From a virus: a stretch of DNA of 64,000 nt. Each line of letters starts with the position of its first letter. Position 1 is the stretch's first letter. The stretch lies in IMG/VR virus record IMGVR_UViG_3300022902_000008; one strand, 5' to 3'. The notes beneath the pieces are model-generated. The model searched no databases. It saw only the letters and a program-made list of their open reading frames with translations, and was not told the origin of the DNA. This document shows positions 22,628-55,047 of this stretch, piece after piece. A program made the position numbers and the translations under genes.

Positions 22628-22846
22628 ATGATCAATAAGACACCAAGTCCTTCAGATCTTACTCATGGAACAGTTGTATGGATTGAAGGTGTTGAGGGCA
22701 CTACCTACAACTATTGTGGTGTTGGTATCATTAGAGCAATTTGTGTGAAAAGGTTTTTTGGGGTAGGTGTTCCAGTTGGTTTTTTTGGAGAAGATAATTA
22801 TTGTTGGTGCTTAATTAGCGACATCAAAAAGGTAATTAAAAAATGA
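22628..22846 (+). CDS. Small GxxVW/YxG family protein
   Basis: HGTVVWIE...YCGVGII. Confidence 0.7.
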   Translation: MINKTPSPSDLTHGTVVWIEGVEGTTYNYCGVGIIRAICVKRFFGVGVPVGFFGEDNYCWCLISDIKKVIKK

Positions 22847-23091
22847 ACAATAATATCACCATATCAGATATTGAGGAAGGCTTAGCTGTGTATATAAACA
22901 AGCACAATAAACGTTTTTCCTATGTAGGGACAGCAATTGTAACTGGTTATAGTTTAGAGTGTGATGGAGTAGAATTGTTGTTACCATTTTGTGTAAGAAT
23001 TAATTCTGTTATTAGTGATGCTTTTGTATGTAATAGGTGTGTTTGGGTAAACATTAATGACATTGATATTGTAAGGGTCATCAAAAAATGA
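22843..23091 (+). CDS. Small GxxVW/YxG family protein
   Basis: EGLAVYIN...YVGTAIV; ATGA coupling. Confidence 0.65.
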   Translation: MNNNITISDIEEGLAVYINKHNKRFSYVGTAIVTGYSLECDGVELLLPFCVRINSVISDAFVCNRCVWVNINDIDIVRVIKK

Positions 23092-23381
23092 CTAATAAAA
23101 CAATAAAAGGATATATTATTTGGATTAACACGGTAAAAGACATAGACAAAATAATAAAAAAATATAACTTAGCTTATTTTATAGTTTATAGTGGTTTGAT
23201 TAATGTTAAAATTATGTTTAATGATAAAAAGTTTTATTTGTTTCGGTTTAAATCTGGTTATAAGAAACATAGTAATGGAAAGATAACAGGGGTTTCTATT
23301 GATTCTGACCATCTCATCAGTGTTGATTTATTTAACAACCTTAACAATGATGGTTATATTAAAATAATAAAAGAAATTTGA
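23088..23381 (+). CDS. Small GxxVW/YxG family protein
   Basis: KGYIIWIN...YSGLINV. Confidence 0.6.
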   Translation: MTNKTIKGYIIWINTVKDIDKIIKKYNLAYFIVYSGLINVKIMFNDKKFYLFRFKSGYKKHSNGKITGVSIDSDHLISVDLFNNLNNDGYIKIIKEI

Positions 23382-23388
23382 AAAAGAT

Positions 23389-23419
23389 GGTTAACAAATG
23401 AGGTCGGTTGTGGTATAAG
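23389..23419 (+). promoter_or_regulatory. sigma70-like early promoter (GGTTAACAAA class)
   Basis: TTAACA-17 bp-TATAAG, TGTG extension. Confidence 0.75.
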
Positions 23420-23450
23420 GGGGTTGTGTAAAAAGGAGGAGGTTGGTGAG

Positions 23451-23810
23451 ATGATGGCAACACAAACACAACAGTTACGAACGCCAAAAGATATATTTGG
23501 AGAAAGATATAAATATATTGGTAATATGTGGATTAAAAAAGGGTTTCAACTTAAGACTAGTGAGCTTACTTATGGTTATGAATATAATGGCCCCGTTAAG
23601 ATTTATTGTGGAAGACTTAATGTAACTGAAGTACCAATAATATATATTCAATTTGCGTTTAATTGTTTGAAGTATAATCATTATGGCGATTTTAACAACA
23701 TTCGTTTTAAATCTTTTTACACTAAGCATACGCTTTTTAACAACAAGCAATTTAAAGGCATGTTTCCAGAATTTTATAAACAACATGAGGACTTAATAGA
23801 TAATGTTTAA
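23451..23810 (+). CDS. Small YxG family protein
   Basis: IGNMWIK...YNGPVKI; ATG 23451 after GGAGGAGG RBS. Confidence 0.6.
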   Translation: MMATQTQQLRTPKDIFGERYKYIGNMWIKKGFQLKTSELTYGYEYNGPVKIYCGRLNVTEVPIIYIQFAFNCLKYNHYGDFNNIRFKSFYTKHTLFNNKQFKGMFPEFYKQHEDLIDNV

Positions 23811-24156
23811 AAAAGAACAACTTAGATCTGGAAAAGTACTGTTTATTAGGAAACCAATATATAGTTTGTCTAGATCTAATAGAAGTATTGTTCGTATTAA
23901 TTATATAGGCCCTGCTATTGTTGGCGTCCATTGGGGTGATTTTGTTAACTTAATATTTCCAAAAGAAGTTATACATTATGTGTTGATTCTAGAAGGTCAT
24001 GATCCAAGAATAAAACCCATTTGTTATAATAAGATTAAGTCTGTTTTTGATGAAAGCTATATAAGTGTTTCAAATCGTCAAGGTCGTAGTAGTTGTGATG
24101 GCTATATGATGGATAGAATTAATATAAGAAAGTATTTTTTAAGGGAAATTATTTGA
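23803..24156 (+). CDS. Small GxxVW/YxG family protein
   Basis: SGKVLFIR...YIGPAIV. Confidence 0.65.
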   Translation: MFKKEQLRSGKVLFIRKPIYSLSRSNRSIVRINYIGPAIVGVHWGDFVNLIFPKEVIHYVLILEGHDPRIKPICYNKIKSVFDESYISVSNRQGRSSCDGYMMDRINIRKYFLREII

Positions 24157-24165
24157 TGAATTTAA

Positions 24166-24390
24166 TTGAAGAAAATGATATCTAAAAAAGACATTCAGGC
24201 TGGCTCAATTGTATGGATTAGGGTTGGTTGTTATAATTATTATGGCTTAGCAGTTGTTGATCAATTAAGAAACCATATATATAAAAACTATATTCCTGTT
24301 AAATTATGTGGTAAAATTAATTGTGATAGTGGAGAATATTCTTATATGCATATCTTATTAAGTTCAATCAAAAAGGTTATTAAGAAATGA
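24166..24390 (+). CDS. Small GxxVW/YxG family protein
   Basis: AGSIVWIR...YYGLAVV...IKKVIKK (like 22628). Confidence 0.7.
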   Translation: MKKMISKKDIQAGSIVWIRVGCYNYYGLAVVDQLRNHIYKNYIPVKLCGKINCDSGEYSYMHILLSSIKKVIKK

Positions 24391-24725
24391 ACAATAATAA
24401 TAGCGACAAGTTTAATTGTTCATTACAGTTTGAAAAAGAGTCTAGAAAAAGTAAAAAAAGGCTTAAAAAAAGAAACTTATGGCATGACGGAAAAAGAATG
24501 AGGGCTTCAAGAAAAAATATGAATAAGTTTTATAAGGTAGGCGATATTGTATGGGTTAAATGGGATAACCATAAGATGGGCAAGAATAAAAACAATGTTG
24601 CAATAATAGAGGATGTATATTATTTCAATCCTAAATATGATTATTCAGTTCGGTTTAATAATGAATATATTTGCTGGAGAATATGTTATTGTCATATTAA
24701 AAAGTTGGTTAAAAGGAATGGTTAA
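24387..24725 (+). CDS. Small GDIVW family protein
   Basis: YKVGDIVWVKW. Confidence 0.65.
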   Translation: MNNNNSDKFNCSLQFEKESRKSKKRLKKRNLWHDGKRMRASRKNMNKFYKVGDIVWVKWDNHKMGKNKNNVAIIEDVYYFNPKYDYSVRFNNEYICWRICYCHIKKLVKRNG

Positions 24726-24728
24726 CAA

Positions 24729-24950
24729 ATGAGACAATTAAAAAAGGGTGATGTTATTTGGGTTAATCACAACAGGGGTAATTCTACTCCATATTGTGGC
24801 CCAGCAGTTATTTTTTCTGGTCAGGGCCTTAATAGAGATGGTTGGGCTATATATGTTATTCTACCAAAAAAGGTTGTATTTAAAATGACAAATTTCAGTA
24901 CAAATAAAATAAATGTTTACAAGGGTGGCTTTTGTTTAATTGAGGGTTAA
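24729..24950 (+). CDS. Small GxxVW/YxG family protein
   Basis: KGDVIWVN...YCGPAVI. Confidence 0.7.
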   Translation: MRQLKKGDVIWVNHNRGNSTPYCGPAVIFSGQGLNRDGWAIYVILPKKVVFKMTNFSTNKINVYKGGFCLIEG

Positions 24951-24980
24951 CAAATGAACCTTGTTGTGGTATATTGTTGT
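24945..24980 (+). promoter_or_regulatory. sigma70-like early promoter; 36-bp exact repeat of 46145-46180
   Basis: TTAACA-17 bp-TATATT, TGTG extension. Confidence 0.8.
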
Positions 24981-24998
24981 TATTGAAAGGGAGGTTTC

Positions 24999-25430
24999 AT
25001 GAGCAATAAACCAACAATGAAAAGATATTCTGATGGATCAATAGAGTGGCTTTTAAATGGATTGTATCATCGAACTGATGGGCCTGCTTGTGAATATTCT
25101 AATGGAACAAAAATATGGTATCTAAATGGAGAACGTCATCGTGAAAATGGTCCTGCATATGATTGTCTTGATGGAACAAAACATTGGTATTTAAATGGAA
25201 AGTATCACCGAGTTGACGCTCCTGCAATCGAACGGCCTGATGGAACAAAAGAATGGTGTTTGAGCGGAAGGTTTTATAATCATATCAAAGGAAAGCTACA
25301 CAACAATAACTTCTTAACATCAGATCAATACATAGGCCCAGTAATAATAGCAGGAGGAAAAAATAAAATAAAGTTTATGAAGACAATAGATGACAGATAT
25401 TTGGTAATTGAAACAAACAAGGCGGATTAA
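24999..25430 (+). CDS. 3 WYLNG repeats fused to YxG-family domain
   Basis: WxLNGxxHRxxGPA x3 then YIGPVII; paralogue of 46200. Confidence 0.75.
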   Translation: MSNKPTMKRYSDGSIEWLLNGLYHRTDGPACEYSNGTKIWYLNGERHRENGPAYDCLDGTKHWYLNGKYHRVDAPAIERPDGTKEWCLSGRFYNHIKGKLHNNNFLTSDQYIGPVIIAGGKNKIKFMKTIDDRYLVIETNKAD

Positions 25431-25692
25431 TATTATGATTAACAACAAAAAAGAAAAATATGAATCTTATTATATTGGAAAGGTTATATTTGCCAAACCT
25501 AAACAAAATAGAACATATAAATATAATTATTATGGTCCTTATATTATTGAAGGTGGAACAACAAATGGTTTCCACTGTATAGCGCCTAAAGTAGTTGGGT
25601 TTATAAGATCAAACGGTACGCCTGCTTTTAAATCAAAGTATGTAGAGGTTTATTTTGAAGAAATTATTAACTCTAAGGAGGTGTTAGCATGA
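25408..25692 (+). CDS. Small YxG family protein
   Basis: IGKVIFAK...YYGPYII. Confidence 0.6.
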   Translation: MKQTRRINIMINNKKEKYESYYIGKVIFAKPKQNRTYKYNYYGPYIIEGGTTNGFHCIAPKVVGFIRSNGTPAFKSKYVEVYFEEIINSKEVLA

Positions 25693-25925
25693 CCTTTCAA
25701 GAAAAGTGGGCAATATGTTCAGACGATGTTCGAGATTGGATGTTAGATAATCTTGATGACTTAATAACAGAGAAGTCTTGTTTGCTTCATAATAACAAGT
25801 GGCTTAAATATAAATATTATTCAGGCCCAATAAGGATGTTGGAACATAAAAAAAATATTGGTATTGTTGTTGTGGAAGGGATCGATAAGCAAGTTTTTGG
25901 TATAACTGAGGATTGCTTTGAGTGA
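25689..25925 (+). CDS. Small YxG family protein
   Basis: YSGPIRM; GGAGG RBS. Confidence 0.6.
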   Translation: MTFQEKWAICSDDVRDWMLDNLDDLITEKSCLLHNNKWLKYKYYSGPIRMLEHKKNIGIVVVEGIDKQVFGITEDCFE

Positions 25926-26384
25926 GTATGAAGTCGTATATGACGTTATGTTCCCCAACGAGATAAGTAAATATAGGGTTGCTAATGATATAAGAATAGT
26001 TGACTTTACTGTTAAGGGTGAGTGGATAAGGGGGGTAGTTGGATGAAGCATTATTGTGGAAGCATATGGTTTGATGGATATAAAAACAAAATAATTGAAC
26101 AAGTTGGTCATAGCAATTATATTTTGTATGTTGATTATTGTGGAATTATTAAGATTTATCATAGAAAACAAAAGGCAAGTACGCCAGGGGGCTTTTTTCT
26201 TTCCTTTCCTCATAAAGTTAATTTGAGGTCAATTAATAAAGAATATTTAAATTCTGAAAAGGCTCTCACACAATGGTTTAAACAGACTACAGAGATCTAT
26301 CATGTGAGTGAAAATAACTTTAGGTTAAACTTCCCTAATTTAAATTTTGATTTAATGGTGAGTAGAATGTTGTATAATTGTTAA
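25918..26384 (+). pseudogene. YxG family gene split by a frameshift in a G6 run
   Basis: ORF 25918-26046 and ORF 26022-26384 join by -1 at G6 (26030-26035) to give KGEWIRGGSWMKHYCGSIW. Confidence 0.5.
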
Positions 26385-26626
26385 ATTCTTTTTAGCTTAT
26401 TTGGCAGCATATCTCTAAATTGTCCACTAGTCATTGGGTCTTTATTTTCTTTTTGTCCCTTTGTTTCTTTTATTTCTTTTGCTACCCTATTAATAAACCA
26501 TATTCTCTTAGGTATAGATAGTTTGTAGGCATTTTCGTAAGAAAATCCACAATAATACATAAGCAAGAATATTTGATCCAGAAATAGTTCTTTAGCTTCT
26601 GGAGAGTTGAGGCCAAAAAAATTCAA
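26381..26626 (-). CDS. Baseplate hub/tail assembly protein (gp51-like), possibly a frameshift extension of the upstream chaperone
   Basis: QIFLLMYYCGFSYENAYKLSIPKRIWF; overlaps end of 26592-27467 at a T7 run. Confidence 0.6.
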   Translation of the reverse strand: MNFFGLNSPEAKELFLDQIFLLMYYCGFSYENAYKLSIPKRIWFINRVAKEIKETKGQKENKDPMTSGQFRDMLPNKLKRI

Positions 26627-27467: not shown

Positions 27468-27565
27468 TTTAGCCTCCGATTTATTTAAAAACTTTGTGTT
27501 ATTAAATATGCTTTAAGTTATTTTTTTTCTGTTAAAATTAATATAGGTATGTAAAAAATATATAT

Positions 27566-28375: not shown

Positions 28376-28398
28376 ATATATTATGGGAGTTTTTATAG

Positions 28399-43490: not shown

Positions 43491-44282
43491 ATGGATTTTG
43501 AACTGATTAAAAAGAAACTAGAGAAGCTTCAAAGTGGTCCTCAAGGCTCTGGAAAGAAGGATACATGGGGACCAGGAATTGAAAAGGCTGTGCATGAAGT
43601 AAGGATTGTGCCTATTAAGGGTGTGAATGATCCTTTTAGGGAACGAGCTTTTTATTACAACATTGGAAAATATCGTAGTCTGGTGTCTCCATGGGCAAGC
43701 TTTGAAAAACAAGATCCTATTTGGGAATTCAGGAAAACTCTTTTTGATAAAGGGACAGATGATTCAGTGGCGCTTGCAAAACAGCTTTCTCCAAAGTCTA
43801 GATATTTTGCACCAATTATTGTAAGAGGCAAAGAAGGTGATGGAGTAAAGTGGTGGGGATTCTCTAAAACTGTTTACATGTATCTTCTTTCAAAGCTAAT
43901 TGACGAAGATTATGGTAACTATATTGATGCAAAAGAGGGCAGAGATATTAAGGTTATTGTAACTCCAGTGCAGGGAAGGGCTTATCCTGATATTGATGTG
44001 GAACTTAAGCCAAGAACAAGTCAGCTTGCAGAATCAGACAAGGAAATTAAAGAGTTGATGGAAGGTATTTCTGATTTTGACAACATTGAGTTTCTTAAGG
44101 CAAAGTCATATGAGGAGTTAGAAGAAATTCTCCTAGAATGGCAGGCAGAAATGACTGATGAGCCAAGTGTTGAGGAAATCGATAGCGGTTCAGAATACAA
44201 AGGTAAAGATAAGGAAGAAAAGCCTGCTTCTGGTGTGCATAAAAGTATTGATGACGCTTTTGATGACTTAGGTTTGGATTAA
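43491..44282 (+). CDS. Single-stranded DNA-binding protein (gp32-like)
   Basis: VRIVP...DPI...RYFAPIIVRG...EGRDI and acidic tail ending DDAFDDL. Confidence 0.8.
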   Translation: MDFELIKKKLEKLQSGPQGSGKKDTWGPGIEKAVHEVRIVPIKGVNDPFRERAFYYNIGKYRSLVSPWASFEKQDPIWEFRKTLFDKGTDDSVALAKQLSPKSRYFAPIIVRGKEGDGVKWWGFSKTVYMYLLSKLIDEDYGNYIDAKEGRDIKVIVTPVQGRAYPDIDVELKPRTSQLAESDKEIKELMEGISDFDNIEFLKAKSYEELEEILLEWQAEMTDEPSVEEIDSGSEYKGKDKEEKPASGVHKSIDDAFDDLGLD

Positions 44283-46144: not shown

Positions 46145-46180
46145 GGTTAACAAATGAACCTTGTTGTGGTATATTGTTGT
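46145..46180 (+). promoter_or_regulatory. sigma70-like early promoter; exact repeat of 24945-24980
   Basis: TTAACA-17 bp-TATATT. Confidence 0.8.
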
Positions 46181-46199: not shown

Positions 46200-46559
46200 A
46201 TGTTCAACAAATCAATGATGACAGAATATCCTAGTGGAACAAAACATTGGTATCTAAATGGAAAGTTGCATCGAGAAGATGGTCCTGCTGCTGAGCATCA
46301 TAGTGGAACAAAAGGATGGTATCTAAATGGGGAGTGTCATCGAGAAGATGGCCCTGCTTATGAACATCCTGATGGATATAAAGAATGTTATCTCAATGGG
46401 CAATTTTATTATGACACCAAAGGGAAGTTGCACAATAATAATTTCCTGGTATCAAATGAATATACAGGCCTAGTAATAATAATGGGAGGGAAAAATAAAA
46501 TAAGGTTCATGAGAACAATAAATAATATATATCTGGTAATTAAATTTGAGGAGTTATAA
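46200..46559 (+). CDS. 2 WYLNG repeats fused to YxG-family domain
   Basis: Paralogue of 24999 (KGKLHNNNFL...YTGLVII.GGKNKI.FM). Confidence 0.75.
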   Translation: MFNKSMMTEYPSGTKHWYLNGKLHREDGPAAEHHSGTKGWYLNGECHREDGPAYEHPDGYKECYLNGQFYYDTKGKLHNNNFLVSNEYTGLVIIMGGKNKIRFMRTINNIYLVIKFEEL

Positions 46560-46562
46560 ATA

Positions 46563-46862
46563 ATGTCACATAAATATAAAGTTGGTGATATTGTATGGGT
46601 TAAAATTCCACCAGCAAAGGACATTAAAAATAGAAAACATAATAAACATTTTATTGCTGCCTGTGGTGGTTGCAGTTGTCTAGGAAGAGTCAGCAAAGTA
46701 TTAAATCAAAACGGTTTAAATAATAATAATAATATCTCAGGTTGGCATTATAATGTTGAGCTTTCATTGCTATTCCCGCTTGAGCTTAACAACTTGTCTG
46801 CTGTTGATGAAAAATATAAATGGTCTATTGCCGAAGAATGGATTGATAGAAAAATAAAATGA
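46563..46862 (+). CDS. Small GDIVW family protein
   Basis: YKVGDIVWVKIP. Confidence 0.7.
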   Translation: MSHKYKVGDIVWVKIPPAKDIKNRKHNKHFIAACGGCSCLGRVSKVLNQNGLNNNNNISGWHYNVELSLLFPLELNNLSAVDEKYKWSIAEEWIDRKIK

Positions 46863-47107
46863 CTTATAAATACAAATATGAAATTGGTGATATTGTATGG
46901 GTTAAAGAGGCTTTTTATTGGCCAAGAAAAGGCAGCTATTCTTTTTATACTGGACCAGTAAGCATTGTTAGTTGTGGATTGTCAGGAAAATATGATCATG
47001 ATATAAGGGGGATTGTATATGTAGTCAGATTGCCTGTTGGGGTATATGAAGGTCTTAGTATTATTGGAGAAAGCCAAATAAAAGGTTTAATAAATGAAAA
47101 TTTATAA
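46859..47107 (+). CDS. Small GDIVW/YxG family protein
   Basis: YEIGDIVWVK...YTGPVSI. Confidence 0.7.
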   Translation: MTYKYKYEIGDIVWVKEAFYWPRKGSYSFYTGPVSIVSCGLSGKYDHDIRGIVYVVRLPVGVYEGLSIIGESQIKGLINENL

Positions 47108-47369
47108 ATATAAAGTTGGTGATATTGTTTGGGTTAAAATTCCAAACTTAAGAAATGTTAAAAATGAAAATTGTAAAGGACATGCAGTTGTAAAAAAGGG
47201 TGGTTGTACCTTTGTTGCTGTTATTTTTGAGGTATATTCTCATAACAATAAATTTGGTTCTTGGGATTATGTCATTTCATTGCCTATTGGTTTTAGTCTT
47301 GAATATGGCACTAAAAAACTTAAAGAGTGGGCTATTGTCAAAGAGTGGGTTAAAGGGAAAGTAAAATGA
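47094..47369 (+). CDS. Small GDIVW family protein
   Basis: YKVGDIVWVKIP; close paralogue of 46563. Confidence 0.7.
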   Translation: MKIYKYKVGDIVWVKIPNLRNVKNENCKGHAVVKKGGCTFVAVIFEVYSHNNKFGSWDYVISLPIGFSLEYGTKKLKEWAIVKEWVKGKVK

Positions 47370-47578
47370 CTTATAAATATAAAATTGGTGATATTGTGTG
47401 GATTAACAACTATCAGCATATGTGTGCAGGGAAGTTCATAACGATGTCAGGTCTTGCTATTATTCAACAAAGTTACATAAATGGTTCTAAAAAATATCTA
47501 GTTTCTTGGGTTGGGTTGCTGTCTGGTCGTTGGGTAGCAATAACGGAGAAAGATATTGACAAAAAAATTAATGTTTAG
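47366..47578 (+). CDS. Small GDIVW family protein
   Basis: YKIGDIVWIN...MSGLAII. Confidence 0.7.
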   Translation: MTYKYKIGDIVWINNYQHMCAGKFITMSGLAIIQQSYINGSKKYLVSWVGLLSGRWVAITEKDIDKKINV

Positions 47579-47804
47579 ACATAGAAAAGGTGATATTGTT
47601 TGGGCTAGTTGTTATATTGTTAGCTTTAATGGCGTTCTTGGGTTTTATAGGTGGCAATCATTTTCAGGAGTAGGAATTGTTTATCACCCAAGATTTCCTG
47701 GCAAATGTGGTAATTATTATGAATATATTATTAAGTTTGGGGAGCATATATATGGAATAGCCAAAGCAGATTGCACAAAAGGAATAAATAATGAAACATT
47801 TTAA
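47571..47804 (+). CDS. Small GDIVW family protein
   Basis: RKGDIVWAS...FSGVGIV. Confidence 0.65.
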   Translation: MFRHRKGDIVWASCYIVSFNGVLGFYRWQSFSGVGIVYHPRFPGKCGNYYEYIIKFGEHIYGIAKADCTKGINNETF

Positions 47805-48134: not shown

Positions 48135-48165
48135 GGTTAACAAACAGGGTTGGTTGTGGTATAAA
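48135..48165 (+). promoter_or_regulatory. sigma70-like early promoter (GGTTAACAAA class)
   Basis: TTAACA-17 bp-TATAAA, TGTG extension. Confidence 0.75.
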
Positions 48166-48200: not shown

Positions 48201-48565
48201 ATGGAAAGTATCAATGAAAAAATGGTTTGTGAGTTTATTGGTTCTGTTGATTGGGACAACAATAAGGAAGTACAAAAGCAAGACATAGAAGATCGTTACG
48301 GTGAAAACACATGGGCCTCAGATGATGTTTGGGAACAGTTTTGAAATTTTATAGTAATGAAATTAGAAAGTTATGTTGGGTTGATGGAAGGGTAGGTTTT
48401 TCATTGGGTGATCATTATGTTTATCGAGATTTTGTTGGGCCATTAATGATTATTTTCAAAGATACGTCAATGAAACAACAAGCTTTATATCTTGGGTTTT
48501 ATTCCAAAGATGAATATATGTGTCTTGTTTCGGAAGATGCAATTAAGGACATTATAGAAGGCTGA
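48201..48565 (+). pseudogene. YxG family gene split by a frameshift in a T run
   Basis: ORF 48201-48344 (..WEQF*) joins ORF 48329-48565 by -1 to give WEQFLKFYSNEIRKLCWVDG...FVGPLMI. Confidence 0.5.
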
Positions 48566-48847
48566 TTGATGAAAAAAAATAAAAAGTATAAAGCTGGCGA
48601 TGTTATTTGGTATCAGATTCCACTAAAAGAAGTTGCGGAGCTTACTGATTATCAAGCTTTAATTAATAATCATTTTTTATTAAGCTTTAAAAGGGCTGTC
48701 AAAGGTCTTGCTATTATTTCTGAACAGTCTACATGGAACCCCTGGGATTATGATATTGTTTTTGCTAACAAGTTAATTGTTGATAGATTAGAAATTGGTG
48801 GTTGTCAGATTCCTGAAAGTTGGGTTTTGGAAAAGGTAGAGATATGA
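48566..48847 (+). CDS. Small GDIVW family protein
   Basis: YKAGDVIWYQIP...VKGLAII. Confidence 0.65.
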   Translation: MMKKNKKYKAGDVIWYQIPLKEVAELTDYQALINNHFLLSFKRAVKGLAIISEQSTWNPWDYDIVFANKLIVDRLEIGGCQIPESWVLEKVEI

Positions 48848-49206
48848 TTGATTTGTACTTTACAAACAGCACATCTAAAGAAATATCTAGACGAACATTT
48901 CATTATCATTGCAAATCGTTAAGTTGGCAATTTATTGGTGGTGGACAATCATTAAAGTTTTCAAGAGTATTCTTTGATCGTTATGCATATGATAATTTTG
49001 CCGCAAATAAAATAATTTATGTTGGGCCAGTCGTTAGACGAAAAGTTATTTTTGTTAGTAAATTTAACCCTAAAGAACAAATGGCTTTTTTTACATATAC
49101 TTTCCCCAAGTTTGTTGGTGCAGAAAGAATAGTTTCGGGTTGGTTTATAAATAGGAAGGGTGACAAAATAACTTTATGTTCTGATGTTGATTGGTTTGAA
49201 AGATGA
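48844..49206 (+). CDS. Small YxG family protein
   Basis: YVGPVVR; ATGA coupling at 48844. Confidence 0.55.
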   Translation: MIDLYFTNSTSKEISRRTFHYHCKSLSWQFIGGGQSLKFSRVFFDRYAYDNFAANKIIYVGPVVRRKVIFVSKFNPKEQMAFFTYTFPKFVGAERIVSGWFINRKGDKITLCSDVDWFER

Positions 49207-49544
49207 AATATATAAAAATTGAAACTAACTTTGGCCATTTAATTCAAAAAAGAAAACAATTTGAAATGTTCTTTATAGCAGGATTCAAATTTGATATAAT
49301 TAAACAAGAGGTTGCTTTTGTTAATTTGAAGTATAAGTTAACAAACGATCAATTCAATTATGTTGGCCCAGTTATATTAAAAAGGCTGCTTGGTGAAAAG
49401 GGAGAAGAAGATGTTGTTGTTATAATTGAAACATTTAAGTTGCCAGAAAGCCGATTAAAAAAGCTCATTGGGCTTAAGAGTTTACACGTTAAGAATGATG
49501 GGTTAATATTATTTATCAATACTGAAGCAAAAAATGAAATATAA
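49203..49544 (+). CDS. Small YxG family protein
   Basis: YVGPVIL. Confidence 0.55.
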   Translation: MKYIKIETNFGHLIQKRKQFEMFFIAGFKFDIIKQEVAFVNLKYKLTNDQFNYVGPVILKRLLGEKGEEDVVVIIETFKLPESRLKKLIGLKSLHVKNDGLILFINTEAKNEI

Positions 49545-49821
49545 TCTTGACAAAGGGTTAGTTTTCACTTATATTACTGAAGAAGGCAGAGAAGGGCTTC
49601 CAGTATATGTTGTACTAATTAATAAACAGGGAGACTTGCTTTATAATAATATAGCTTTGTTATATAAAGAATGTCATGGTAACTATTTTAGCTTTAAGTT
49701 TTTAACTAAAAATATATATAATGTTGTGTTTTCTAAAATAGACAATACAAATTGGTTCATAAATAAGAGGAACATACAGAAACTTTATTATTTAAATGGG
49801 GGAAATGGTTATGGGAAGTGA
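49534..49821 (+). CDS. Hypothetical protein
   Basis: 95-aa ORF overlapping its neighbours. Confidence 0.5.
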   Translation: MKYNLDKGLVFTYITEEGREGLPVYVVLINKQGDLLYNNIALLYKECHGNYFSFKFLTKNIYNVVFSKIDNTNWFINKRNIQKLYYLNGGNGYGK

Positions 49822-51709
49822 TAATATTAAAAATAAAATTGTTGGCATTGATCTTGGGACTTCTCGATCTGCAATTGCGGTGATGGAAGCAGGCAAGACA
49901 AGCATTATTATTAATCAAGAGGGCGATAGAACAACACCATCAGTTGTTAGTTTAAGTGACGGTTCAGTTGGGATATCAGCAAAAAGGGCTGGAGTTGTTC
50001 ACCCGGAATCTACAATTTATTCAGTAAAAAGGTTGATTGGTAGAAGGTATAAAGATATTAAGGGTGAGTTAAAAAACTTATCATATTCTGTCTTTGAAAA
50101 CAGCAATGGTTCAACAAAAATTGTTTATGATGATAACGAACATTCACCACAAGAGATCTCTTCAAAGATATTAATTAAACTTAAGAAGGCCGCTGAAGAT
50201 TATCTTGGGGAAAAGGTTGAGAAGGCTGTTATTACCGTTCCTGCTTATTTTGATGATTCTCAAAGAATGGCAACAAAGGTTGCAGGCGAAATTGCTGGGT
50301 TGGATGTTGTAAGGATCATCAATGAGCCGACAGCGGCAGCTTTAGCTTATGGTGTTGATAAAAAAGATGATTTTAAGGTTATGGTTGTTGATATTGGCGG
50401 GGGAACAACGGACTTCTCAGTACTTGAAGTTGGTGGCGGAATTGTTGAGGTATTATCAACAAGTGGCGATACATATTTAGGTGGTGATGATATAGATAAT
50501 GTTTTGTTGGGTCATTTTATTGAGGAATTTAAAAATCAGACTAACATCGATGCCTCTGGTGATAAGATGGTTATGCAGAGGTTAAAAGAGGCAGCGGAGA
50601 AGGCGAAGATTGAGTTGTCCCTAATGTTGGAGACTGAGGTTAACTTACCATTCCTTTCAGCAAATGAAACTGGTCCTAAGCATTTTATTTATAAGCTTAG
50701 TAGGAGTAAGTTCGAGGTAATGATTATGCCATTGTTAGAGAGGGCCTTGGTCCCATGTAAAATTGCATTGGAAGATGCTAAACTAAGTGTTGATGATATA
50801 GATGAGGTTTTGTTTGTTGGTGGAACAACAAGAATTCCATTAGTGACGAAAATTATGGTTGATTTTTTTGGAAAAGAGCCAAACAAGAGTGTTAATCCAG
50901 ATGAAATTGTTGCAATGGGTGCGGCTATCCAGGGGGCGGTTCTTTCTGGTGACGATGCCGTGAAAGATATTTTGTTGTTGGATGTCACTCCATTGTCTTT
51001 GGGGATTGAAACTTTAGGTGGAGTATTTACAAGAATTATTGAAAGAAACACAACAATCCCTTGTGTAAAATCGGAGATCTTCTCTACAGCAGCAAATAAC
51101 CAACCAGCAGTATCTATTGTTGCCTATCAGGGGGAAAGAAATATTGCTGCAAATAATAAACTTTTAGGTAAGTTTGATTTAATTGGAATTCCACCTGCCC
51201 CAAAAGGTACTCCACAAATTGAAGTTAAATTTAATTTGAATTCAGATGGCATTTTGAATGTTGTTGCAACTGATAAGGTGACTGGAGAAAATAAAGATAT
51301 TACAATTACATCTTCTTGTGGGCTTTCTGATGAAGAAATTGAAAAGATGAAAAATGATGCAGAAGAGAACAAAGTAAAAGATGAGGAAAAAATTGAAATT
51401 ATCAATTTAAGGAATGAACTTGAAACATTAAAAATTTCTGCTGAGAGCCTTTTTAAAGAGCATTCAGGGAAGGCCTATGTCAACCCATTGGGTGATGTTA
51501 TAAAATCCACTGAGGAGCTTTTGGGGAATTCTGACACCACGTCTGAGGCCTTAAATGAGCAGAAAAAAATGTTAGAAAGTATTCTCCACAACATCTCAAA
51601 GGAAATGTATCAGGGCTGTTCTGATGATGACCTAAGTTGCGATGCCAGGGGGGAAAACAGTAAAAGAGGTGAGGTAATTATTGACGCAGAATTTGAGGAT
51701 ATTGAATAA
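49796..51709 (+). CDS. dnaK: Hsp70 chaperone DnaK
   Basis: GIDLGTS, EGDRTTPS, TVPAYF, INEPTAAALAYG, DIGGGT, LLLDVTPLSLGIET. Confidence 0.97.
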   Translation: MGEMVMGSDNIKNKIVGIDLGTSRSAIAVMEAGKTSIIINQEGDRTTPSVVSLSDGSVGISAKRAGVVHPESTIYSVKRLIGRRYKDIKGELKNLSYSVFENSNGSTKIVYDDNEHSPQEISSKILIKLKKAAEDYLGEKVEKAVITVPAYFDDSQRMATKVAGEIAGLDVVRIINEPTAAALAYGVDKKDDFKVMVVDIGGGTTDFSVLEVGGGIVEVLSTSGDTYLGGDDIDNVLLGHFIEEFKNQTNIDASGDKMVMQRLKEAAEKAKIELSLMLETEVNLPFLSANETGPKHFIYKLSRSKFEVMIMPLLERALVPCKIALEDAKLSVDDIDEVLFVGGTTRIPLVTKIMVDFFGKEPNKSVNPDEIVAMGAAIQGAVLSGDDAVKDILLLDVTPLSLGIETLGGVFTRIIERNTTIPCVKSEIFSTAANNQPAVSIVAYQGERNIAANNKLLGKFDLIGIPPAPKGTPQIEVKFNLNSDGILNVVATDKVTGENKDITITSSCGLSDEEIEKMKNDAEENKVKDEEKIEIINLRNELETLKISAESLFKEHSGKAYVNPLGDVIKSTEELLGNSDTTSEALNEQKKMLESILHNISKEMYQGCSDDDLSCDARGENSKRGEVIIDAEFEDIE

Positions 51710-51712
51710 GCA

Positions 51713-52054
51713 ATGAAAGTAAGGCAAGGATTTGTCAGCAATAGTTCAACAAGCAGCTTTATTATTACTAACAAGTCTGATAAAATGCTAAATGTAGTTG
51801 ATTTGGTGATTGATTTGTCTGATAGGCTAGGGGAGTCTTATCTTGACATTTCTTTGAGACAACTATTAAATGATGCTGAGCAATTATATAGGAATAACTA
51901 TAACTTAAAGCCCAAAATAAGTATAAAGTTATATGTTTCAAATGAAGATGATAATTATGCAAGCTGTTTTTTAAGTCAGATCTTAAATAAAGATAGAGAT
52001 GAGGTTAATGAAAGTGAAAATTTTACATGGGAATTTAAAAATTATTATGGATAA
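51713..52054 (+). CDS. MKxRxGFVSNSSS-motif protein 1
   Basis: MKVRQGFVSNSSTSSFII. Confidence 0.7.
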   Translation: MKVRQGFVSNSSTSSFIITNKSDKMLNVVDLVIDLSDRLGESYLDISLRQLLNDAEQLYRNNYNLKPKISIKLYVSNEDDNYASCFLSQILNKDRDEVNESENFTWEFKNYYG

Positions 52055-52068
52055 ACGGAGGTAAAAAA

Positions 52069-52662
52069 ATGAAAATTAGAACAGGCTTTGTTAGTAACTC
52101 CTCATCAAGTAGTTTTATTTGTAACGTGTGTGGAGAAAATGTTTCAGGTTATGACATGATGTTAAGTGAAGCAGAAATGTATGAGTGTGGTAATGGTCAT
52201 ATTTTTTGTGAAGGTCATGTTAAGGGCGGGTTTGATTATCATGAGATTCTTGGTAATGAAGAGAAGTTATTGCAGTTTGTTGAAAATAAATTAAATGGTC
52301 AAATTACAACAACGAAAAATAACATAAGGAAACTTAAGGCCACTAATTCAAATTGGAATTCATCAGGCTATGAAGCAAACATTAGCAATCTTGAAAAAGA
52401 ACTTAGTGAGTTGAAAAATAAAGAATATGAAGAAATTATAGAAGAGTGGGAAAACTTTTTTGAGGAAGGAGAGTATAGGTATGAATTTCCTATAGACTAT
52501 TGTCCTGTTTGTACTTTAGAGGCATTCAGAGATGAAGATTTGTTAGAGTTTATGTTGGCATCTCAAGGGAAAAACAAAACTAATATTGAAGAGGCAATTA
52601 AAAAATCATTTAAAAACATTAATGAGCTTAATGAATTTATTGGAAAAAATAAAAAGGGTTAA
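52069..52662 (+). CDS. MKxRxGFVSNSSS-motif protein 2 (Zn-binding)
   Basis: MKIRTGFVSNSSSSSFICNVC...CGNGHIFC...CPVC. Confidence 0.7.
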   Translation: MKIRTGFVSNSSSSSFICNVCGENVSGYDMMLSEAEMYECGNGHIFCEGHVKGGFDYHEILGNEEKLLQFVENKLNGQITTTKNNIRKLKATNSNWNSSGYEANISNLEKELSELKNKEYEEIIEEWENFFEEGEYRYEFPIDYCPVCTLEAFRDEDLLEFMLASQGKNKTNIEEAIKKSFKNINELNEFIGKNKKG

Positions 52663-52665
52663 AAC

Positions 52666-53169
52666 ATGAAAGTTCGTCAAGGTTTTGTTAGTAACAGTTC
52701 AAGCACATCATTTGTTATTAAAGAGGAGTCGATTAAAACTACAGCAGAATGTGCATTGCAAATGTTAAAAATTGTTAAAGATGATTATTTTGATGAGGAT
52801 AGGGAGTCAATTATTGAAGGAATTAGAAAATATTCTAATGGGAAAATTTTGATGGCAATAAAATGGCTGCAAAACAATATTAAATATGATGGAAATATAT
52901 ATTTTCCATGGTCAATTAATTATAAAACATATATTTGGAAAAATAATAATGGGATATTTGTTGACACATGCAATAATCATTACTGGCATAATCATTTTGC
53001 TGTGGATTCTAGAATGGATCATTATTGTTGGTATACTTCTAAATATAATGACACACCGGAAAAACTACCTAGCGACACTCCAGATCCAATTAATAATTAT
53101 TTTGATGAATATTTAGACTTAAGTGATCTTACTTTTGTTGATATTAAAGATAATAAATATTGCTTTTAA
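52666..53169 (+). CDS. MKxRxGFVSNSSS-motif protein 3
   Basis: MKVRQGFVSNSSSTSFVI. Confidence 0.7.
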   Translation: MKVRQGFVSNSSSTSFVIKEESIKTTAECALQMLKIVKDDYFDEDRESIIEGIRKYSNGKILMAIKWLQNNIKYDGNIYFPWSINYKTYIWKNNNGIFVDTCNNHYWHNHFAVDSRMDHYCWYTSKYNDTPEKLPSDTPDPINNYFDEYLDLSDLTFVDIKDNKYCF

Positions 53170-53214
53170 TAAGTATGGTTTGGGTTGATAAAGGTAAGAT
53201 CGAATGGGGGTCCA

Positions 53215-53460
53215 ATGATTAGCAAAGAAATAGTTGAAGAGGGAAAAGCATATTGGGTTCAAGTTAGCCATATAGAGACATTTACTACTGGTTCTTTTTC
53301 TTATCCAATTAACTATACTGGCGTGGGGGTTGTCAATAGGAATAAATATTATAAAGAACATCCTTATTTTTTTATTAATTTGTCAAAACACACTACTAAT
53401 TATTTGTATATGGTTTTAGCCAAAAACATTAATTTTATTGAAAAGATAGGAGAGTTATAA
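53215..53460 (+). CDS. Small GxxxW/YxG family protein
   Basis: EGKAYWVQ...YTGVGVV. Confidence 0.6.
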   Translation: MISKEIVEEGKAYWVQVSHIETFTTGSFSYPINYTGVGVVNRNKYYKEHPYFFINLSKHTTNYLYMVLAKNINFIEKIGEL

Positions 53461-53463
53461 TAA

Positions 53464-54084
53464 ATGCCAAGATTTAAAGCTGGAGACATTGTGTCTTTCA
53501 AGTATAGTGGGCCATATTCACATGATCCAAGTCCAATGGTGTTAATATTAAACCCAAGTTGGGGTGGGTTTGTACATGCAATTAACTTGAATTATTTAAC
53601 AACACAACAAACAATTCATTTATTGTGCTTAGCCTATCCAGATAAGGCAGAAGATTTAACATTTAGTTATCCTGCTGTTAAAGATTTTTTAAAAACTTAT
53701 GGAGAGGTTCCAAATATTCATGAGCATCAAAAGTTTTATTATAATTATGTTCAAGAGCCAGCAACGAGGCTAATGGTATATAGAAAATATCGTGCATCAA
53801 GAATGAATGGGATTAATTTTAAAACTGTTGAAACTCTTAATAAGTTTACCTTGCAGGGAAGGCAGGAAAGAGAACGTGTTGAACAGGGTGAAGTTGACAA
53901 GTTAGCTAAAGAAAAAGAAGAGCAAGAAAGACAGGAACAAGAGGAAATCGATAAGCGTGCTCAAGAGGAGTTGGAAGCACAAGAGGCAGAAAAGGAAAAA
54001 ATTGAAGAAAGTAAAAGAATAAATCGTAAAAAGAAAACTTCCAGTAAAACAAAAAGGCCCAAGAGAAAAAAGAAGAAGATTTAA
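53464..54084 (+). CDS. Possible DNA end-protector protein (T4 gp2-like) with charged tail
   Basis: GDIVSFKY...DPSPMVLIL...HAINLNYL...YRKY pattern. Confidence 0.45.
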   Translation: MPRFKAGDIVSFKYSGPYSHDPSPMVLILNPSWGGFVHAINLNYLTTQQTIHLLCLAYPDKAEDLTFSYPAVKDFLKTYGEVPNIHEHQKFYYNYVQEPATRLMVYRKYRASRMNGINFKTVETLNKFTLQGRQERERVEQGEVDKLAKEKEEQERQEQEEIDKRAQEELEAQEAEKEKIEESKRINRKKKTSSKTKRPKRKKKKI

Positions 54085-54486
54085 ATGGTTGATCAAAAGA
54101 ATAATTCTATATGGTTAGCATGGTTAGGGAAAGTTCTTTGGGTTGATTATAGTTTTATTCCTTATTATTATGTTAAAAATATTATAGATTATGAGCCAAT
54201 TAGAACAAAGACAGAAGCCGTTAAAAGACAATATTGTGGCCCTGCAATTGTTGCTGGTATTGATTTTGGAGTCAGCGATGCTTCAGGTGGAAATAAAAAT
54301 TTAACTTTTCCATATTATCAGTTACAATTAGCGAACAAGGAAGTTAATATTGAAAACAAAGTTTATAGTATTATTAGGCCCATAAGAAGAGATCCAACTG
54401 ACAACATTTGGTTAAACAGATATATATTTTTGGAATTGTTAAAAAATAATGGAGAGAAAGAAAAGGTTAAAGGAAACGAATGTTAG
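54085..54486 (+). CDS. Small GxxVW/YxG family protein
   Basis: LGKVLWVD...YCGPAIV. Confidence 0.65.
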   Translation: MVDQKNNSIWLAWLGKVLWVDYSFIPYYYVKNIIDYEPIRTKTEAVKRQYCGPAIVAGIDFGVSDASGGNKNLTFPYYQLQLANKEVNIENKVYSIIRPIRRDPTDNIWLNRYIFLELLKNNGEKEKVKGNEC

Positions 54487-54764
54487 TTTGGATTAATGGT
54501 AAATGTGGTTATTGTGGGGTTGGGCTTGTACAATCAACATTAACATCTAGGGATACTGGAAGAGCATTATATATGATAAGTGTTCAAAATAATTCAGTTT
54601 ATAAATTTAAGAAATCTGAAATTGCGAAAGAGAATTACATTACTTTTGATAAAAAAATTAAAAGTGCTGAAGATTTAATGGTTTTTCATGGGATGGATTT
54701 TTTTAGTCATTTTACATATACAGACAAGACTGACTTAGTTTTAATGGGGAAGAAGGGTGGGTAA
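54480..54764 (+). CDS. Small VW/YxG family protein
   Basis: LVWING...YCGVGLV. Confidence 0.6.
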   Translation: MLVWINGKCGYCGVGLVQSTLTSRDTGRALYMISVQNNSVYKFKKSEIAKENYITFDKKIKSAEDLMVFHGMDFFSHFTYTDKTDLVLMGKKGG

Positions 54765-55047
54765 TAAATTTAAAAATGGTGATTCTGTGTGGATTAATTG
54801 CACTTGTCCCTATTATGTTGGGCTTGGGATCATTATTCAGAAATATGGAAATGCATATATTACAAGAATTGCTAGCAAATCATTTGCAGTAGATTCTACA
54901 AGTTATCAAACAAGAAAGCTAAAGTGCAAATGGAATTTAGAAATGGCATTAGATTTATCATGTCATTTAAAACATCCTGTTGAGTATATATTTGACAATG
55001 TGTTATATTTACAAGAAGATCATTTAACATTAGTGGAGAAAAGATGA
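54757..55047 (+). CDS. Small GxxVW/YxG family protein
   Basis: FKNGDSVWIN...YVGLGII. Confidence 0.65.
   Translation: MGNKFKNGDSVWINCTCPYYVGLGIIIQKYGNAYITRIASKSFAVDSTSYQTRKLKCKWNLEMALDLSCHLKHPVEYIFDNVLYLQEDHLTLVEKR

What the first reader, a model, noticed from the sequence alone, without database searches (positions are those of the whole stretch)
22628..55047. About 25-member expansion of tiny GxxVW...YxG (SH3/KOW/Tudor-like) proteins across three islands
Seen: most small ORFs in 22.6-26.4 kb, 46.2-49.5 kb and 53.2-55.0 kb carry one or both of (Y/F)KxGD(I/V)VW(V/I) and (Y/F)xG(P/V/L)xx(I/V). Examples are YCGVGII, YIGPAIV, YYGLAVV, YCGPAVI, YTGPVSI, YVGPVIL and YVGLGII, despite otherwise low identity. 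46563-47578 are recent tandem duplicates sharing 5' DNA. Known: xKxGDxVW is the first-strand signature of PWWP/Tudor/KOW beta-barrels. Inference: an early-expressed diversified binder library (anti-defence or host-takeover decoys) built on one fold.
Basis: partly seen in the sequence, partly recalled or inferred. Interest (0 to 1): 0.72.

Follow-up and report, generated by a model that had tools for sequence, protein, structure and literature searches.

The report
Expanded orphan SH3-like mini-protein family
An uncultured jumbo phage carries at least 18 very diverged copies, in this window alone, of one tiny SH3/Tudor-like beta-barrel protein known only from its own phage clade; the family is real and unusually large, but what the proteins bind is untested.

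Summary
Both motifs are strongly enriched and confined to the three islands. GDx[IV]W has 9 DNA-level hits against 0.24 expected. YxGPxx[IVM] has 9 against 0.8, and 8 of the 9 lie in the islands.

- **Membership:** 18 ORFs align as one family. A profile of them, run against 1.84 billion proteins, recovers window ORFs or their strain variants. It also finds three true foreign members, from two or more related phages (two confirmed by synteny) that carry the family in syntenic islands.
- **Marginal ORFs:** Three more ORFs are borderline. Five or six ORFs that carry essentially only the YxG motif are not shown to belong, including two repeat-domain fusions. "About 25" is therefore an upper bound.
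- **Fold:** AlphaFold gives a five-stranded SH3-like barrel (pLDDT 81). Its structural neighbours are all KOW, Tudor, PWWP or PsaE barrels. No Pfam, PHROGs or NCBIfam model matches.
- **Duplicates:** The "recent tandem duplicates" are old. Only the gene 5' ends and one junction stay similar.
- **Promoters:** Islands 1 and 2 contain five copies of a sigma-70-like extended -10 promoter element, which fits early expression.
- **Function:** The binder or anti-defence role remains inference.

The scan had already reported this family in neighbouring windows of the same genome.

The parts
22628..22846 (+). Family member (72 aa), the one modelled. Predicted as a five-stranded SH3-like barrel.
   Evidence: Profile E 2.3e-12. 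AF2 pLDDT 81. Fold hits.
22843..23091 (+). Family member (82 aa). Has YVGTAIV; strand 1 is degenerate (GLAVYI).
   Evidence: Aligned in A1 and A2. The strain variant P0022 scores E 4e-4. That variant has a 24-bp in-frame deletion.
23803..24156 (+). Family member (117 aa) with a longer C-terminal part.
   Evidence: hhalign against A2, which does not contain it: E 2.1e-5, probability 77%.
24166..24390 (+). Family member (74 aa).
   Evidence: Profile E 4.5e-12. BLASTP against 22628: 2.5e-5.
24387..24725 (+). Family member (112 aa as called; the barrel starts near residue 45). Has motif A only.
   Evidence: Profile E 3.2e-11, matched over residues 42-111.
24729..24950 (+). Family member (73 aa) with both motifs.
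   Evidence: Profile E 4.4e-9. Motif hits.
25408..25692 (+). Family member (85-94 aa). Has YYGPYII.
   Evidence: Profile E 2.8e-10.
46563..47578 (+). Four tandem members: 46563-46862, 46859-47107, 47094-47369 and 47366-47578. They form an old duplication of a two-gene cassette. All four genes start with a near-identical 38-41 nt segment.
   Evidence: Repeats D1, D2 and D9. The cassette alignment shows identity only at the gene 5' ends and the junction. Profile E 2e-11 to 4e-9.
47556..47804 (+). Family member (77-82 aa) with both motifs.
   Evidence: Profile E 6e-8 and 6e-3.
48329..48565 (+). Family member (74-78 aa). Has FVGPLMI.
   Evidence: Profile E 9.3e-6.
48566..48847 (+). Family member (92-93 aa) with a long insertion in the strand 1-2 loop.
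   Evidence: Profile E 1.6e-8.
53185..53460 (+). Family member (91 aa as called). Has YTGVGVV.
   Evidence: The strain variant P0019 scores E 1.5e-4 and 1.2e-5.
54085..54486 (+). Family member (133 aa) with a long strand 1-2 loop and a C-terminal extension.
   Evidence: hhalign against A2, which does not contain it: E 9.2e-6, probability 83%.
54480..54764 (+). Family member (94 aa). The barrel starts at residue 2.
   Evidence: Profile E 1.3e-5. hhalign against A2: E 1e-3.
54757..55047 (+). Family member (96 aa) with both motifs.
   Evidence: Profile E 2.5e-4. Motif hit.
49203..49544 (+). Probable member (113 aa). Has YVGPVIL.
   Evidence: hhalign against A2: E 9e-4 over 31 columns covering strands 1 and 2.
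23088..23381 (+). Possible member (97 aa).
   Evidence: hhalign E 0.013. Carries a nonsense mutation in strain variant L014.
26022..26384 (+). Possible member (120 aa). The coding assignment is itself uncertain because a minus-strand ORF overlaps it.
   Evidence: hhalign E 0.014. ORF table.
24999..25430 (+). Protein with 23-aa repeats (DUF6745/MORN_2-like) and a C-terminal tail containing YIGPVII. Not shown to be a family member.
   Evidence: BLASTP against 46200: 2e-44. The tail fold was tested on its paralogue and was inconclusive.
46200..46559 (+). Second repeat-plus-tail protein (YTGLVII). One of at least five such paralogues in this phage. Not shown to be a family member.
   Evidence: hhalign E 0.065, motif only. 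AF2 of the tail gave pLDDT 52.7 and three strands. Paralogues.
48820..49206 (+). ORF with the motif only (YVGPVVR). Membership unsupported.
   Evidence: hhalign E 0.043. A 25-nt DNA repeat over the motif is shared with 49348 (D12).
22565..22595 (+). Promoter-like element GGTTAACAAA-N-TGTTATAGT, about 30 nt before the first gene of island 1.
23389..23419 (+). Promoter-like element: GGTTAACAAATGA...GTTGTGGTATA.
24945..24975 (+). Promoter-like element. Its 30-mer is identical to the one at 46146.
46145..46175 (+). Promoter-like element at the head of island 2.
48135..48165 (+). Promoter-like element inside island 2.

Best explanation
**What it is (shown).** The islands hold a lineage-specific, heavily expanded family of stand-alone proteins of about 70-130 aa.
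- Each protein is a single SH3-like small beta-barrel with five conserved elements:
  - strand 1: xKxGDxVWV
  - strand 2: YxG(P/L/V)AxI, long and kinked at the Gly
  - strand 3: xYxVxh
  - strand 4: WxI
  - a short turn, then strand 5: ExxIKxh
- There are at least 18 members in this window.
- The family also sits in the same genomic positions in related phages.
- It matches no named protein family.

**How it most likely works (inferred).**
- The genes are accessory genes. In islands 1 and 2 they are transcribed from their own sigma-70-like promoters by host RNA polymerase, probably early in infection.
- The conserved residues build the barrel core. The three loops, which vary greatly in length and sequence, carry the specificity.
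- Each paralogue therefore binds a different host or phage macromolecule and modulates it. That role would be host takeover, regulation or counter-defence.
- The family grows by tandem duplication of one- and two-gene cassettes and turns over quickly.

**Confidence.** About 0.9 that this is a real SH3-like family. About 0.45-0.5 for the early-accessory-binder reading.
For: **Family is real**
- Motif enrichment.
- 18 sequences align.
- The profile search of 1.84e9 proteins returns only window ORFs or their variants plus P0017, P0018 and P0024.
- Non-circular hhalign for 23803, 54085 and 54480 gives E 2e-5, 9e-6 and 1e-3.

**Fold**
- AF2 pLDDT 81 with five strands.
- Foldseek top hits are OapB, TDRD3 Tudor, the Hpy99I N-domain, NdhS and the NusG C-terminal domain.
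- The exhaustive structural search gives Z 6-7.5 over 50-66 of 72 residues, all SH3-like barrels.

**Conserved positions in relatives**
- L001 has at least 6 members between the tail-tube gene and a minus-strand gene, as island 1 does.
- P0018 lies just upstream of a 5'-3' exonuclease gene, as island 3 does.

**Fast turnover**
- The tube proteins of the two phages are 77% identical. The best cross-phage family pair is 39% identical, and there are no one-to-one orthologues.

**Own promoters**
- GGTTAACAAA occurs exactly 7 times in the window. Six copies are on the plus strand inside islands 1 and 2. Five of those are followed at the right spacing by TGnTATAnT, a ribosome-binding site and a start codon.
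- Extended -10 motifs are also enriched in the island of the relative (15 against 5.2 expected).

**Duplication**.

**Dispensability**
- An otherwise identical strain contig has a 24-bp in-frame deletion in one member and a stop codon in a neighbouring island gene.
- P0019 is a frameshifted variant of 53185.

**Scaffold and loops**
- Only G10, W14 and G32 are at least 90% conserved.
- The strand 1-2 loop ranges from a few residues to about 30 residues.
Against: - There are no expression, interaction or phenotype data, and the host is unknown.
- Promoter calls are consensus matches only. Overall promoter-like counts in the regions are near shuffle expectation.
- Island 3 has no copy of the element.
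- Variable loops on a conserved core are what any old, diverged family shows, so this is not specific evidence for a binder repertoire.
- Structural Z scores of 6-7.5 are in the range the tool gives for common arrangements, so they place the fold class and nothing finer.
- Only one member was modelled with confidence.
- The profile E-values for window members are inflated because those sequences were in the profile.
- The disrupted strain variants could equally mean the genes are neutral passengers.
Confidence: 0.5

Rival explanations
1. Nucleic-acid-binding regulators. The barrels act like KOW, LSm or Tudor modules on RNA, DNA, RNA polymerase or the ribosome. [quoted passage not shown]
For: - The nearest structures are mostly nucleic-acid or transcription and translation factors: OapB bound to OLE RNA, NusG and Spt5 KOW, ribosomal L21e and L14e, Xrn1, and a PWWP bound to ssDNA.
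- By my hand count of residues, several members I counted are strongly basic, with Lys-rich ends such as IKKVIKK, KGKVK and MKKNKKYK.
- T4 has a small family of early barrel proteins linked to mRNA stability (PMC12152347).
Against: - There is no sequence or profile similarity to GoF, MotB.1 or MotB.
- No KOW, Tudor or LSm Pfam model matches.
- Lys richness is expected in a 32% GC genome.
- It is hard to see why dozens of paralogues would be needed for such a role.
Confidence: 0.25
2. Largely neutral or selfish cassette proliferation. Small promoter-bearing cassettes multiply and shuffle by recombination at the shared promoter and 5' segments. Most copies contribute little to phage fitness.
For: - The 5' DNA and junction segments are conserved next to saturated gene interiors.
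- An identical 30-nt promoter segment sits in front of two paralogues in different islands.
- Disrupted alleles occur in otherwise identical strains.
- There are no one-to-one orthologues between relatives.
Against: - The barrel scaffold is kept in all 18 members, and in relatives whose best pairs share only about 30-39% identity. That needs purifying selection on folding.
- The reading frames are intact and tightly coupled, with overlapping stop and start codons.
- The 5' DNA identity is largely explained by a conserved peptide plus strong codon bias.
Confidence: 0.15
3. Virion or assembly role. Island 1 lies between the tail-tube and baseplate genes. The barrels could be tail or baseplate decoration, or assembly helpers, expressed late.
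For: - Island 1 sits among structural genes: gp19-like tube at 20769 and a T4 baseplate homologue at 26592 on the minus strand.
- SH3-like domains are common in phage tail and lysis proteins (endolysin rows).
Against: - Islands 2 and 3 sit among replication and recombination genes: gp32, RecA, Hsp70 and a 5'-3' exonuclease.
- Members are not conserved one-to-one between relatives whose tube proteins are 77% identical.
- The promoter-like elements are of the sigma-70 type.
Confidence: 0.07
4. No family. The motifs are chance or compositional recurrences in unrelated small ORFs.
For: - Pairwise BLASTP links are mostly weak.
- Several motif-only ORFs fail the profile comparison.
Against: - Motif counts are 11- to 37-fold over shuffles and confined to the islands.
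- A profile of these ORFs finds independent members in related phages at E of about 3e-5 to 8e-4 against 1.84e9 proteins.
- The alignment yields a confident single-domain model.
Confidence: 0.02

Closest known systems
Royal-family barrels (Tudor, PWWP, Agenet), for example the PHF19 and TDRD3 Tudor domains and the DNMT3A PWWP domain
   Same: - Five-stranded SH3-like barrel, with Z 6.5-7.0 and TM about 0.5-0.57.
- Strand 1 reads (Y/F)KxGDxVW, as PWWP strand 1 does. Strand 2 ends in PAxI, as PWWP's WPAxI does. The PWWP consensus here comes from my own knowledge and was not tested.
   Different: - No Pfam Tudor or PWWP match, even at E<=1.
- YxGP stands in place of P-W-W-P.
- There is no C-terminal helical bundle.
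- These are stand-alone phage proteins.
- An aromatic cage was not demonstrated.
KOW domains (NusG and Spt5 C-terminal domains, OapB, ribosomal L24, L14e and L21e)
   Same: - Best Foldseek hit is OapB (E 8e-3, TM 0.62-0.64).
- NusG and Spt5 KOW score Z 6.5-7.2.
- Similar size, and similarly basic.
   Different: - The KOW sequence motif and Pfam model are not matched.
- The family is not part of a larger transcription or ribosomal protein.
[quoted passage not shown]
   Same: - Small, non-essential, early T4-type phage proteins.
- The N-terminal part is a five-stranded bent beta-sheet.
- The paralogues have almost no sequence similarity to one another.
   Different: - No profile similarity to this family, and no PHROGs hit.
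- T4 has three copies, each with an extra C-terminal domain. This phage has at least 18 mostly single-domain copies in 32 kb.
Retroviral and retrotransposon integrase C-terminal SH3-like domain (GPY/F module; MLV integrase CTD, 2m9u)
   Same: It is the best sequence-level PDB hit. GDTVWV...WKGPYTV aligns to GDiVWV...YvGPaiI over strands 1 and 2.
   Different: - E 0.32 is not significant.
- The integrase domain is part of a large enzyme.
- There is no evidence of common descent.

Membership tests
SH3-like small beta-barrel (fold class) | Five antiparallel strands forming a barrel, with a short helical turn between strands 4 and 5. | tested here: met
   The AF2 model has strands 16-20, 30-40, 43-47, 58-62 and 66-71, with a turn at 63-65. 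The hit lists are filled almost entirely by SH3-like barrels.
PWWP domain (PF00855) | Match to the family profile. | tested here: not met
   No Pfam hit for any of the 23 members at E<=1, and none at E<=0.1.
PWWP domain (PF00855) | A Pro-Trp-Trp-Pro type motif at the start of strand 2, and a C-terminal helical bundle. | tested here: not met
   Strand 2 begins with YxG(P/L/V). The model ends with strand 5 and has no helices.
Tudor / Royal family | Structural match clearly above background. | tested here: inconclusive
   PHF19 Z 7.0, TDRD3 Z 6.5, Foldseek E 0.04-0.1. The tool notes that Z below 8 may reflect only a common arrangement.
Tudor / Royal family | An aromatic cage of 3-4 surface aromatic residues that binds methylated Lys or Arg. 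| not testable with these tools
   Conserved W (strand 1), Y (strand 2), and Y or W (strands 3 and 4) exist. Their exposure could not be read because the script machine was lost.
KOW domain (PF00467) | Match to the family profile or the KOW glycine motif. | tested here: not met
   No Pfam hit at E<=1. Structural similarity to NusG and Spt5 is only at Z 6.5-7.2.
T4 GoF/MotB.1/Frd.2 LSm-like family | Detectable sequence or profile relationship to the T4 proteins. | tested here: not met
   hhalign of A2 against GoF gives E 0.3, and against MotB.1 gives E 0.22. Frd.2 itself was not fetched or tested. PHROGs gives 0 families.
Integrase C-terminal GPY/F module | Significant sequence similarity. | tested here: inconclusive
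   Best PDB sequence hit is 2m9u at E 0.32 over 32 positions.
This phage family (profile A2) | Motif-B-only ORFs (24999, 46200, 48820, 25689, 23424) share the barrel. | tested here: inconclusive
   hhalign E 0.04-0.2, aligned only over the YxGP motif. AF2 of the repeat-fusion tail gave pLDDT 52.7 and three strands.

The most novel reading that the evidence does not exclude
The phage maintains a germline repertoire of dozens of single-domain barrel binders on one scaffold. There are at least 18 in this window, and possibly 60 or more genome-wide according to notes on neighbouring windows. The repertoire would be diversified by cassette duplication and recombination at the shared promoter and 5' segments. 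It would be deployed early to neutralise a broad range of host defence or regulatory proteins. In effect this would be a phage-encoded counter-immunity library.
Probability: 0.2. Interest if true: 0.85.

Novelty: new variant of a known kind. Interest (0 to 1): 0.55.

Why it matters
Jumbo phages are full of small orphan genes, and very few of them can be grouped or assigned even a fold.

Here a large share of the "dark" small genes of one uncultured phage collapses into a single unnamed SH3-like family. The family is restricted to one phage clade, sits in conserved hot spots, has its own promoters and turns over fast.

If the members prove to be specific binders, the family would be a natural, compact scaffold library. 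It would also be a source of new host-takeover or anti-defence activities. If they are RNA or DNA binders, it would greatly extend the T4 GoF-type idea.

Either way, the finding yields a defined set of about 20 short proteins that can be synthesised and screened.

Tried and rejected
- **Named families:** Pfam, PHROGs and NCBIfam scans of all members gave no family.
- **PDB by sequence:** A profile search of PDB sequences gave nothing significant.
- **BFVD fold search:** It returned only uncharacterised phage barrels.
- **ESM Atlas:** It returned only unnamed viral clusters. Weak leads (DUF3104, T4 MotB; score 0.85) were not borne out by hhalign against MotB.
- **T4 GoF and MotB.1:** No profile similarity.
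- **IMG/VR searches:**
  - The alignment was too variable for the search for related loci.
  - A single-protein scan found no relative.
  - A degenerate DNA motif scan gave 89 contigs with one match each. That is what chance would give, and no contig had an array.
- **Genome-wide count:** It was not possible. No whole genome is held, and the metagenome records behind the loci are not searchable.
- **Script machine:** It was lost. There was no leave-one-out HMM test, no dN/dS and no inspection of model coordinates.
- **AF2 of the repeat-fusion tail:** Low confidence.
- **Word-based homologue searches:** They added no new relatives.
- **"Recent tandem duplicates":** Rejected after aligning the cassettes.
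- **Host inference from the phage Hsp70:** Uninformative, at 51% identity or less to anything in the phage collection.

Full report
**Setting**

The window has 30-39% GC, and nearly all genes are on the plus strand. It belongs to a large T4-like myophage.

Genes identified:
- a gp19-type tail tube at 20769
- a T4 baseplate homologue at 26592, on the minus strand
- gp32 at 43491
- RecA with an intein at 44358
- Hsp70 at 49796
- a 5'-3' exonuclease at 55044

There are also two tail-sheath paralogues at 5718 and 8614. The closest sheath in the phage collection is from an uncultured 484-kb phage, at 28% identity. There is no nucleotide match to any deposited phage.

The same proteins occur on metagenome contigs of up to 216,854 bp, so this is a jumbo phage. 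No whole genome is held for the window.

**The observation**

Motif enrichment, tested as degenerate DNA patterns against shuffles:
- GDx[IV]W gives 9 matches against 0.24 expected. All 9 lie in the islands.
- YxGPxx[I/V/M] gives 9 matches against 0.8 expected. Eight lie in the islands, and the ninth is in a tail-sheath gene.

In the translations, about 25 of the 29 small plus-strand ORFs in 22.6-26.4, 46.2-49.8 and 53.2-55.0 kb carry at least one motif in strict or relaxed form.

**Is it one family?**

Eighteen ORFs align over five conserved elements (A1; A2 with relatives):
- xKxGDxVWV
- YxG(P/L/V)AxI
- xYxVxh
- WxI
- ExxIKxh

Pairwise BLASTP links are weak. The best are 46563 against 47094 at 4e-16 and 22628 against 24166 at 2.5e-5.

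A profile of the 18 was run against 1.84 billion representative proteins and found only 23 proteins at E<=1e-3:
- Three are long repeat proteins, matched through repeated short stretches. They are spurious.
- The rest are window ORFs or their strain variants, plus three foreign proteins: P0017, P0018 and P0024.

The foreign members were not in the profile, so they are independent support.

Non-circular profile comparisons against A2, which excludes the tested sequence:

| ORF start | hhalign E-value |
|---|---|
| 54085 | 9e-6 |
| 23803 | 2e-5 |
| 49203 | 9e-4 |
| 54480 | 1e-3 |
| 23088 | 0.013 |
| 26022 | 0.014 |
| 53464 | 0.017 |
| 48820 | 0.043 |
| 46200 | 0.065 |
| 25689 | 0.09 |
| 23424 | 0.22 |

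My count is therefore:
- 18 firm members
- one probable member (49203)
- two possible members (23088, 26022)
- five or six ORFs that share essentially only the YxG motif

"About 25" is an upper bound for this window.

**The repeat fusions**

24999-25430 and 46200-46559 consist of 23-aa repeats followed by a conserved 45-aa tail that contains Yx G(P/L)VII.
- The repeats score weakly as DUF6745 or MORN_2 in their larger paralogues.
- The repeats are widespread, with more than 2,000 hits.
- The tail is found only in five paralogues of this phage.
- AlphaFold of the tail alone gave three strands at pLDDT 52.7. Whether it is a cut-down barrel remains open.

**Fold**

AlphaFold2 of 22628-22846 with the 18-row alignment gave pLDDT 81 and pTM 0.67. 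The model has five strands and a short turn before the last strand.

Foldseek against the PDB, at E 8e-3 to 0.1 and TM 0.5-0.64:
- OapB (KOW-like, RNA-bound)
- TDRD3 and PHF19 or PHF1 Tudor domains
- the N-domain of Hpy99I
- NdhS
- the NusG C-terminal domain
- ribosomal L14e and L21e
- PWWP domains

An exhaustive aligner that does not rely on Foldseek, at Z 6-7.5 over 50-66 of 72 residues:
- PsaE
- Xrn1
- NusG and Spt5 KOW
- PHF19 Tudor
- Agenet
- PWWP

Every neighbour is an SH3-like small barrel, so the fold class is secure. The scores are too low to choose among KOW, Tudor and PWWP.

At sequence level nothing matches:
- Pfam at E<=1, PHROGs and NCBIfam give nothing.
- The best PDB sequence hit is the SH3-like C-terminal domain of MLV integrase, at E 0.32.

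The strand-1 motif and the PAxI of strand 2 resemble PWWP. That consensus is from my own knowledge. However, the P-W-W-P motif and the helical bundle are absent.

**Relatives and synteny**

P0017 lies on a 9.8-kb contig (L001). Its layout is gp19-like tube, HNH-type gene, a run of small genes, then a minus-strand gene. This is the layout of island 1. At least six of its small genes are family members.

P0018 lies a few genes upstream of a 5'-3' exonuclease and next to a 212-aa protein. This is the layout of island 3.

The tube proteins of the two phages are 77% identical. The best cross-phage family pair is 39% identical, and no one-to-one orthologues are evident. The family is kept as a class, while individual genes turn over fast.

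**Duplication**

The four genes at 46563-47578, and to a lesser degree 47556 and 48566, begin with a 38-nt segment that is 71-100% identical.

Aligning 46542-47093 with 47076-47585 shows a two-gene cassette duplicated in tandem. Identity is confined to the two gene starts and the junction between gene 1 and gene 2. The interiors are close to random.

These are old duplicates, not recent ones. A conserved peptide plus the strong AT-biased codon usage explains much of the DNA identity. Gene conversion at these short segments is possible but not shown.

**Promoter-like elements**

GGTTAACAAA occurs exactly seven times in the window. Six copies are on the plus strand within islands 1 and 2.

Five of them are followed at sigma-70 spacing by TG(G/T)TATA(A/T/G)(T/A/G), then by a ribosome-binding site and a start codon. 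They start at:
- 22565
- 23389
- 24945
- 46145
- 48135

The 30-mers at 24946 and 46146 are identical. The full pattern is found 3 times against 0.22 expected.

The relative L001 lacks the -35-like word but is enriched in extended -10 motifs, several of them in island intergenic gaps.

This fits transcription by unmodified host RNA polymerase, which in T4-like phages means early. It is consensus evidence only, and island 3 has no such element.

**Dispensability**

A contig from another sample (L014) is identical to the window over about 1,060 nt except for two changes:
- a 24-bp in-frame deletion inside 22843-23091
- a GGA-to-TGA change that truncates 23088-23381

P0019 is a C-terminally frameshifted variant of 53185. 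Single low-coverage contigs can carry errors. Taken at face value, individual members can be lost.

**Interpretation**

Shown:
- a real, clade-restricted, highly expanded family of stand-alone SH3-like barrels
- conserved genomic hot spots
- tandem cassette duplication
- fast turnover

Inferred:
- The conserved positions (G-D-x-V-W, Y-x-G, alternating hydrophobic residues) form the barrel core.
- The three loops, which vary from two to about thirty residues, carry the specificity.
- The genes are early accessory genes whose products bind host or phage macromolecules.

I rate this reading at about 0.5.

Rival readings:
- neutral or selfish cassette proliferation: 0.15
- a virion or assembly role: 0.07

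An anti-defence role is possible, but nothing here points to it specifically.

**Relation to earlier notes of this scan**

Notes on neighbouring windows of the same genome describe the same family, with 20-45 copies each (e1-5835500, e1-5835512, e1-5835490). They also describe the same promoter element (e1-5835501, e1-5835487).
- I found the promoter element before reading those notes.
- I took the T4 GoF lead from them and tested it. The result was negative at sequence level.
- The genome-wide total is likely well above the 18 counted here, but I could not verify it.

**Possible clade**

A 2025 paper describes "moraphages", large aquatic phages with DnaK and predicted Bacteroidota hosts (PMC12619734). 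This phage also has Hsp70, and its sheath partly matches Flavobacterium phages. Membership of that lineage was not tested.

Noticed in passing
window 49796-51709: A full-length Hsp70/DnaK gene (Pfam HSP70, E 9e-222) lies between islands 2 and 3. It is at most 51% identical to any DnaK in the phage collection.
   Followed up: partly
window 44358-46019: A RecA homologue carries an intein-splicing domain near residues 122-200.
   Followed up: no
window 103-20445: At least seven paralogues (starts at 103, 3153, 12781, 14360, 18062 and 19138, plus a truncated one at 15523) share an N-terminus MNLLEKYIRLLL. Four of them end in 23-aa W-x-L-N-G-x-x-H-R-x-D-G-P-A repeats. The same repeats occur in the small fusion proteins at 24999 and 46200.
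   Followed up: partly
window 5718-8558 and 8614-11553: There are two adjacent full-length tail-sheath paralogues (946 and 979 aa).
   Followed up: no
window 51713-53169: Three tandem genes begin with the same peptide, MK(V/I)RxGFVSNSS, and are otherwise unalike.
   Followed up: no
L014 compared with window 22210-23300: This strain variant is identical to the window apart from a 24-bp in-frame deletion in 22843-23091 and a nonsense change in 23088-23381.
   Followed up: yes
window 53464-54084: A 206-aa protein starts with FKAGDIVSF and then YSGP, and has a long Lys/Glu-rich tail. A 212-aa protein occupies the same position in a relative. It is not demonstrably a family member (hhalign E 0.017).
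   Followed up: partly
window 21444-22502 and 11628-12764: Two HNH-type (homing-endonuclease-like) genes have similar Cys-rich N-termini. The homologue of the first in L001 carries DUF7487.
   Followed up: no
window 25821-26384: The coding assignment is ambiguous here. A 130-aa minus-strand ORF overlaps plus-strand ORFs at 25918-26046 and 26022-26384, at the end of island 1.
   Followed up: no
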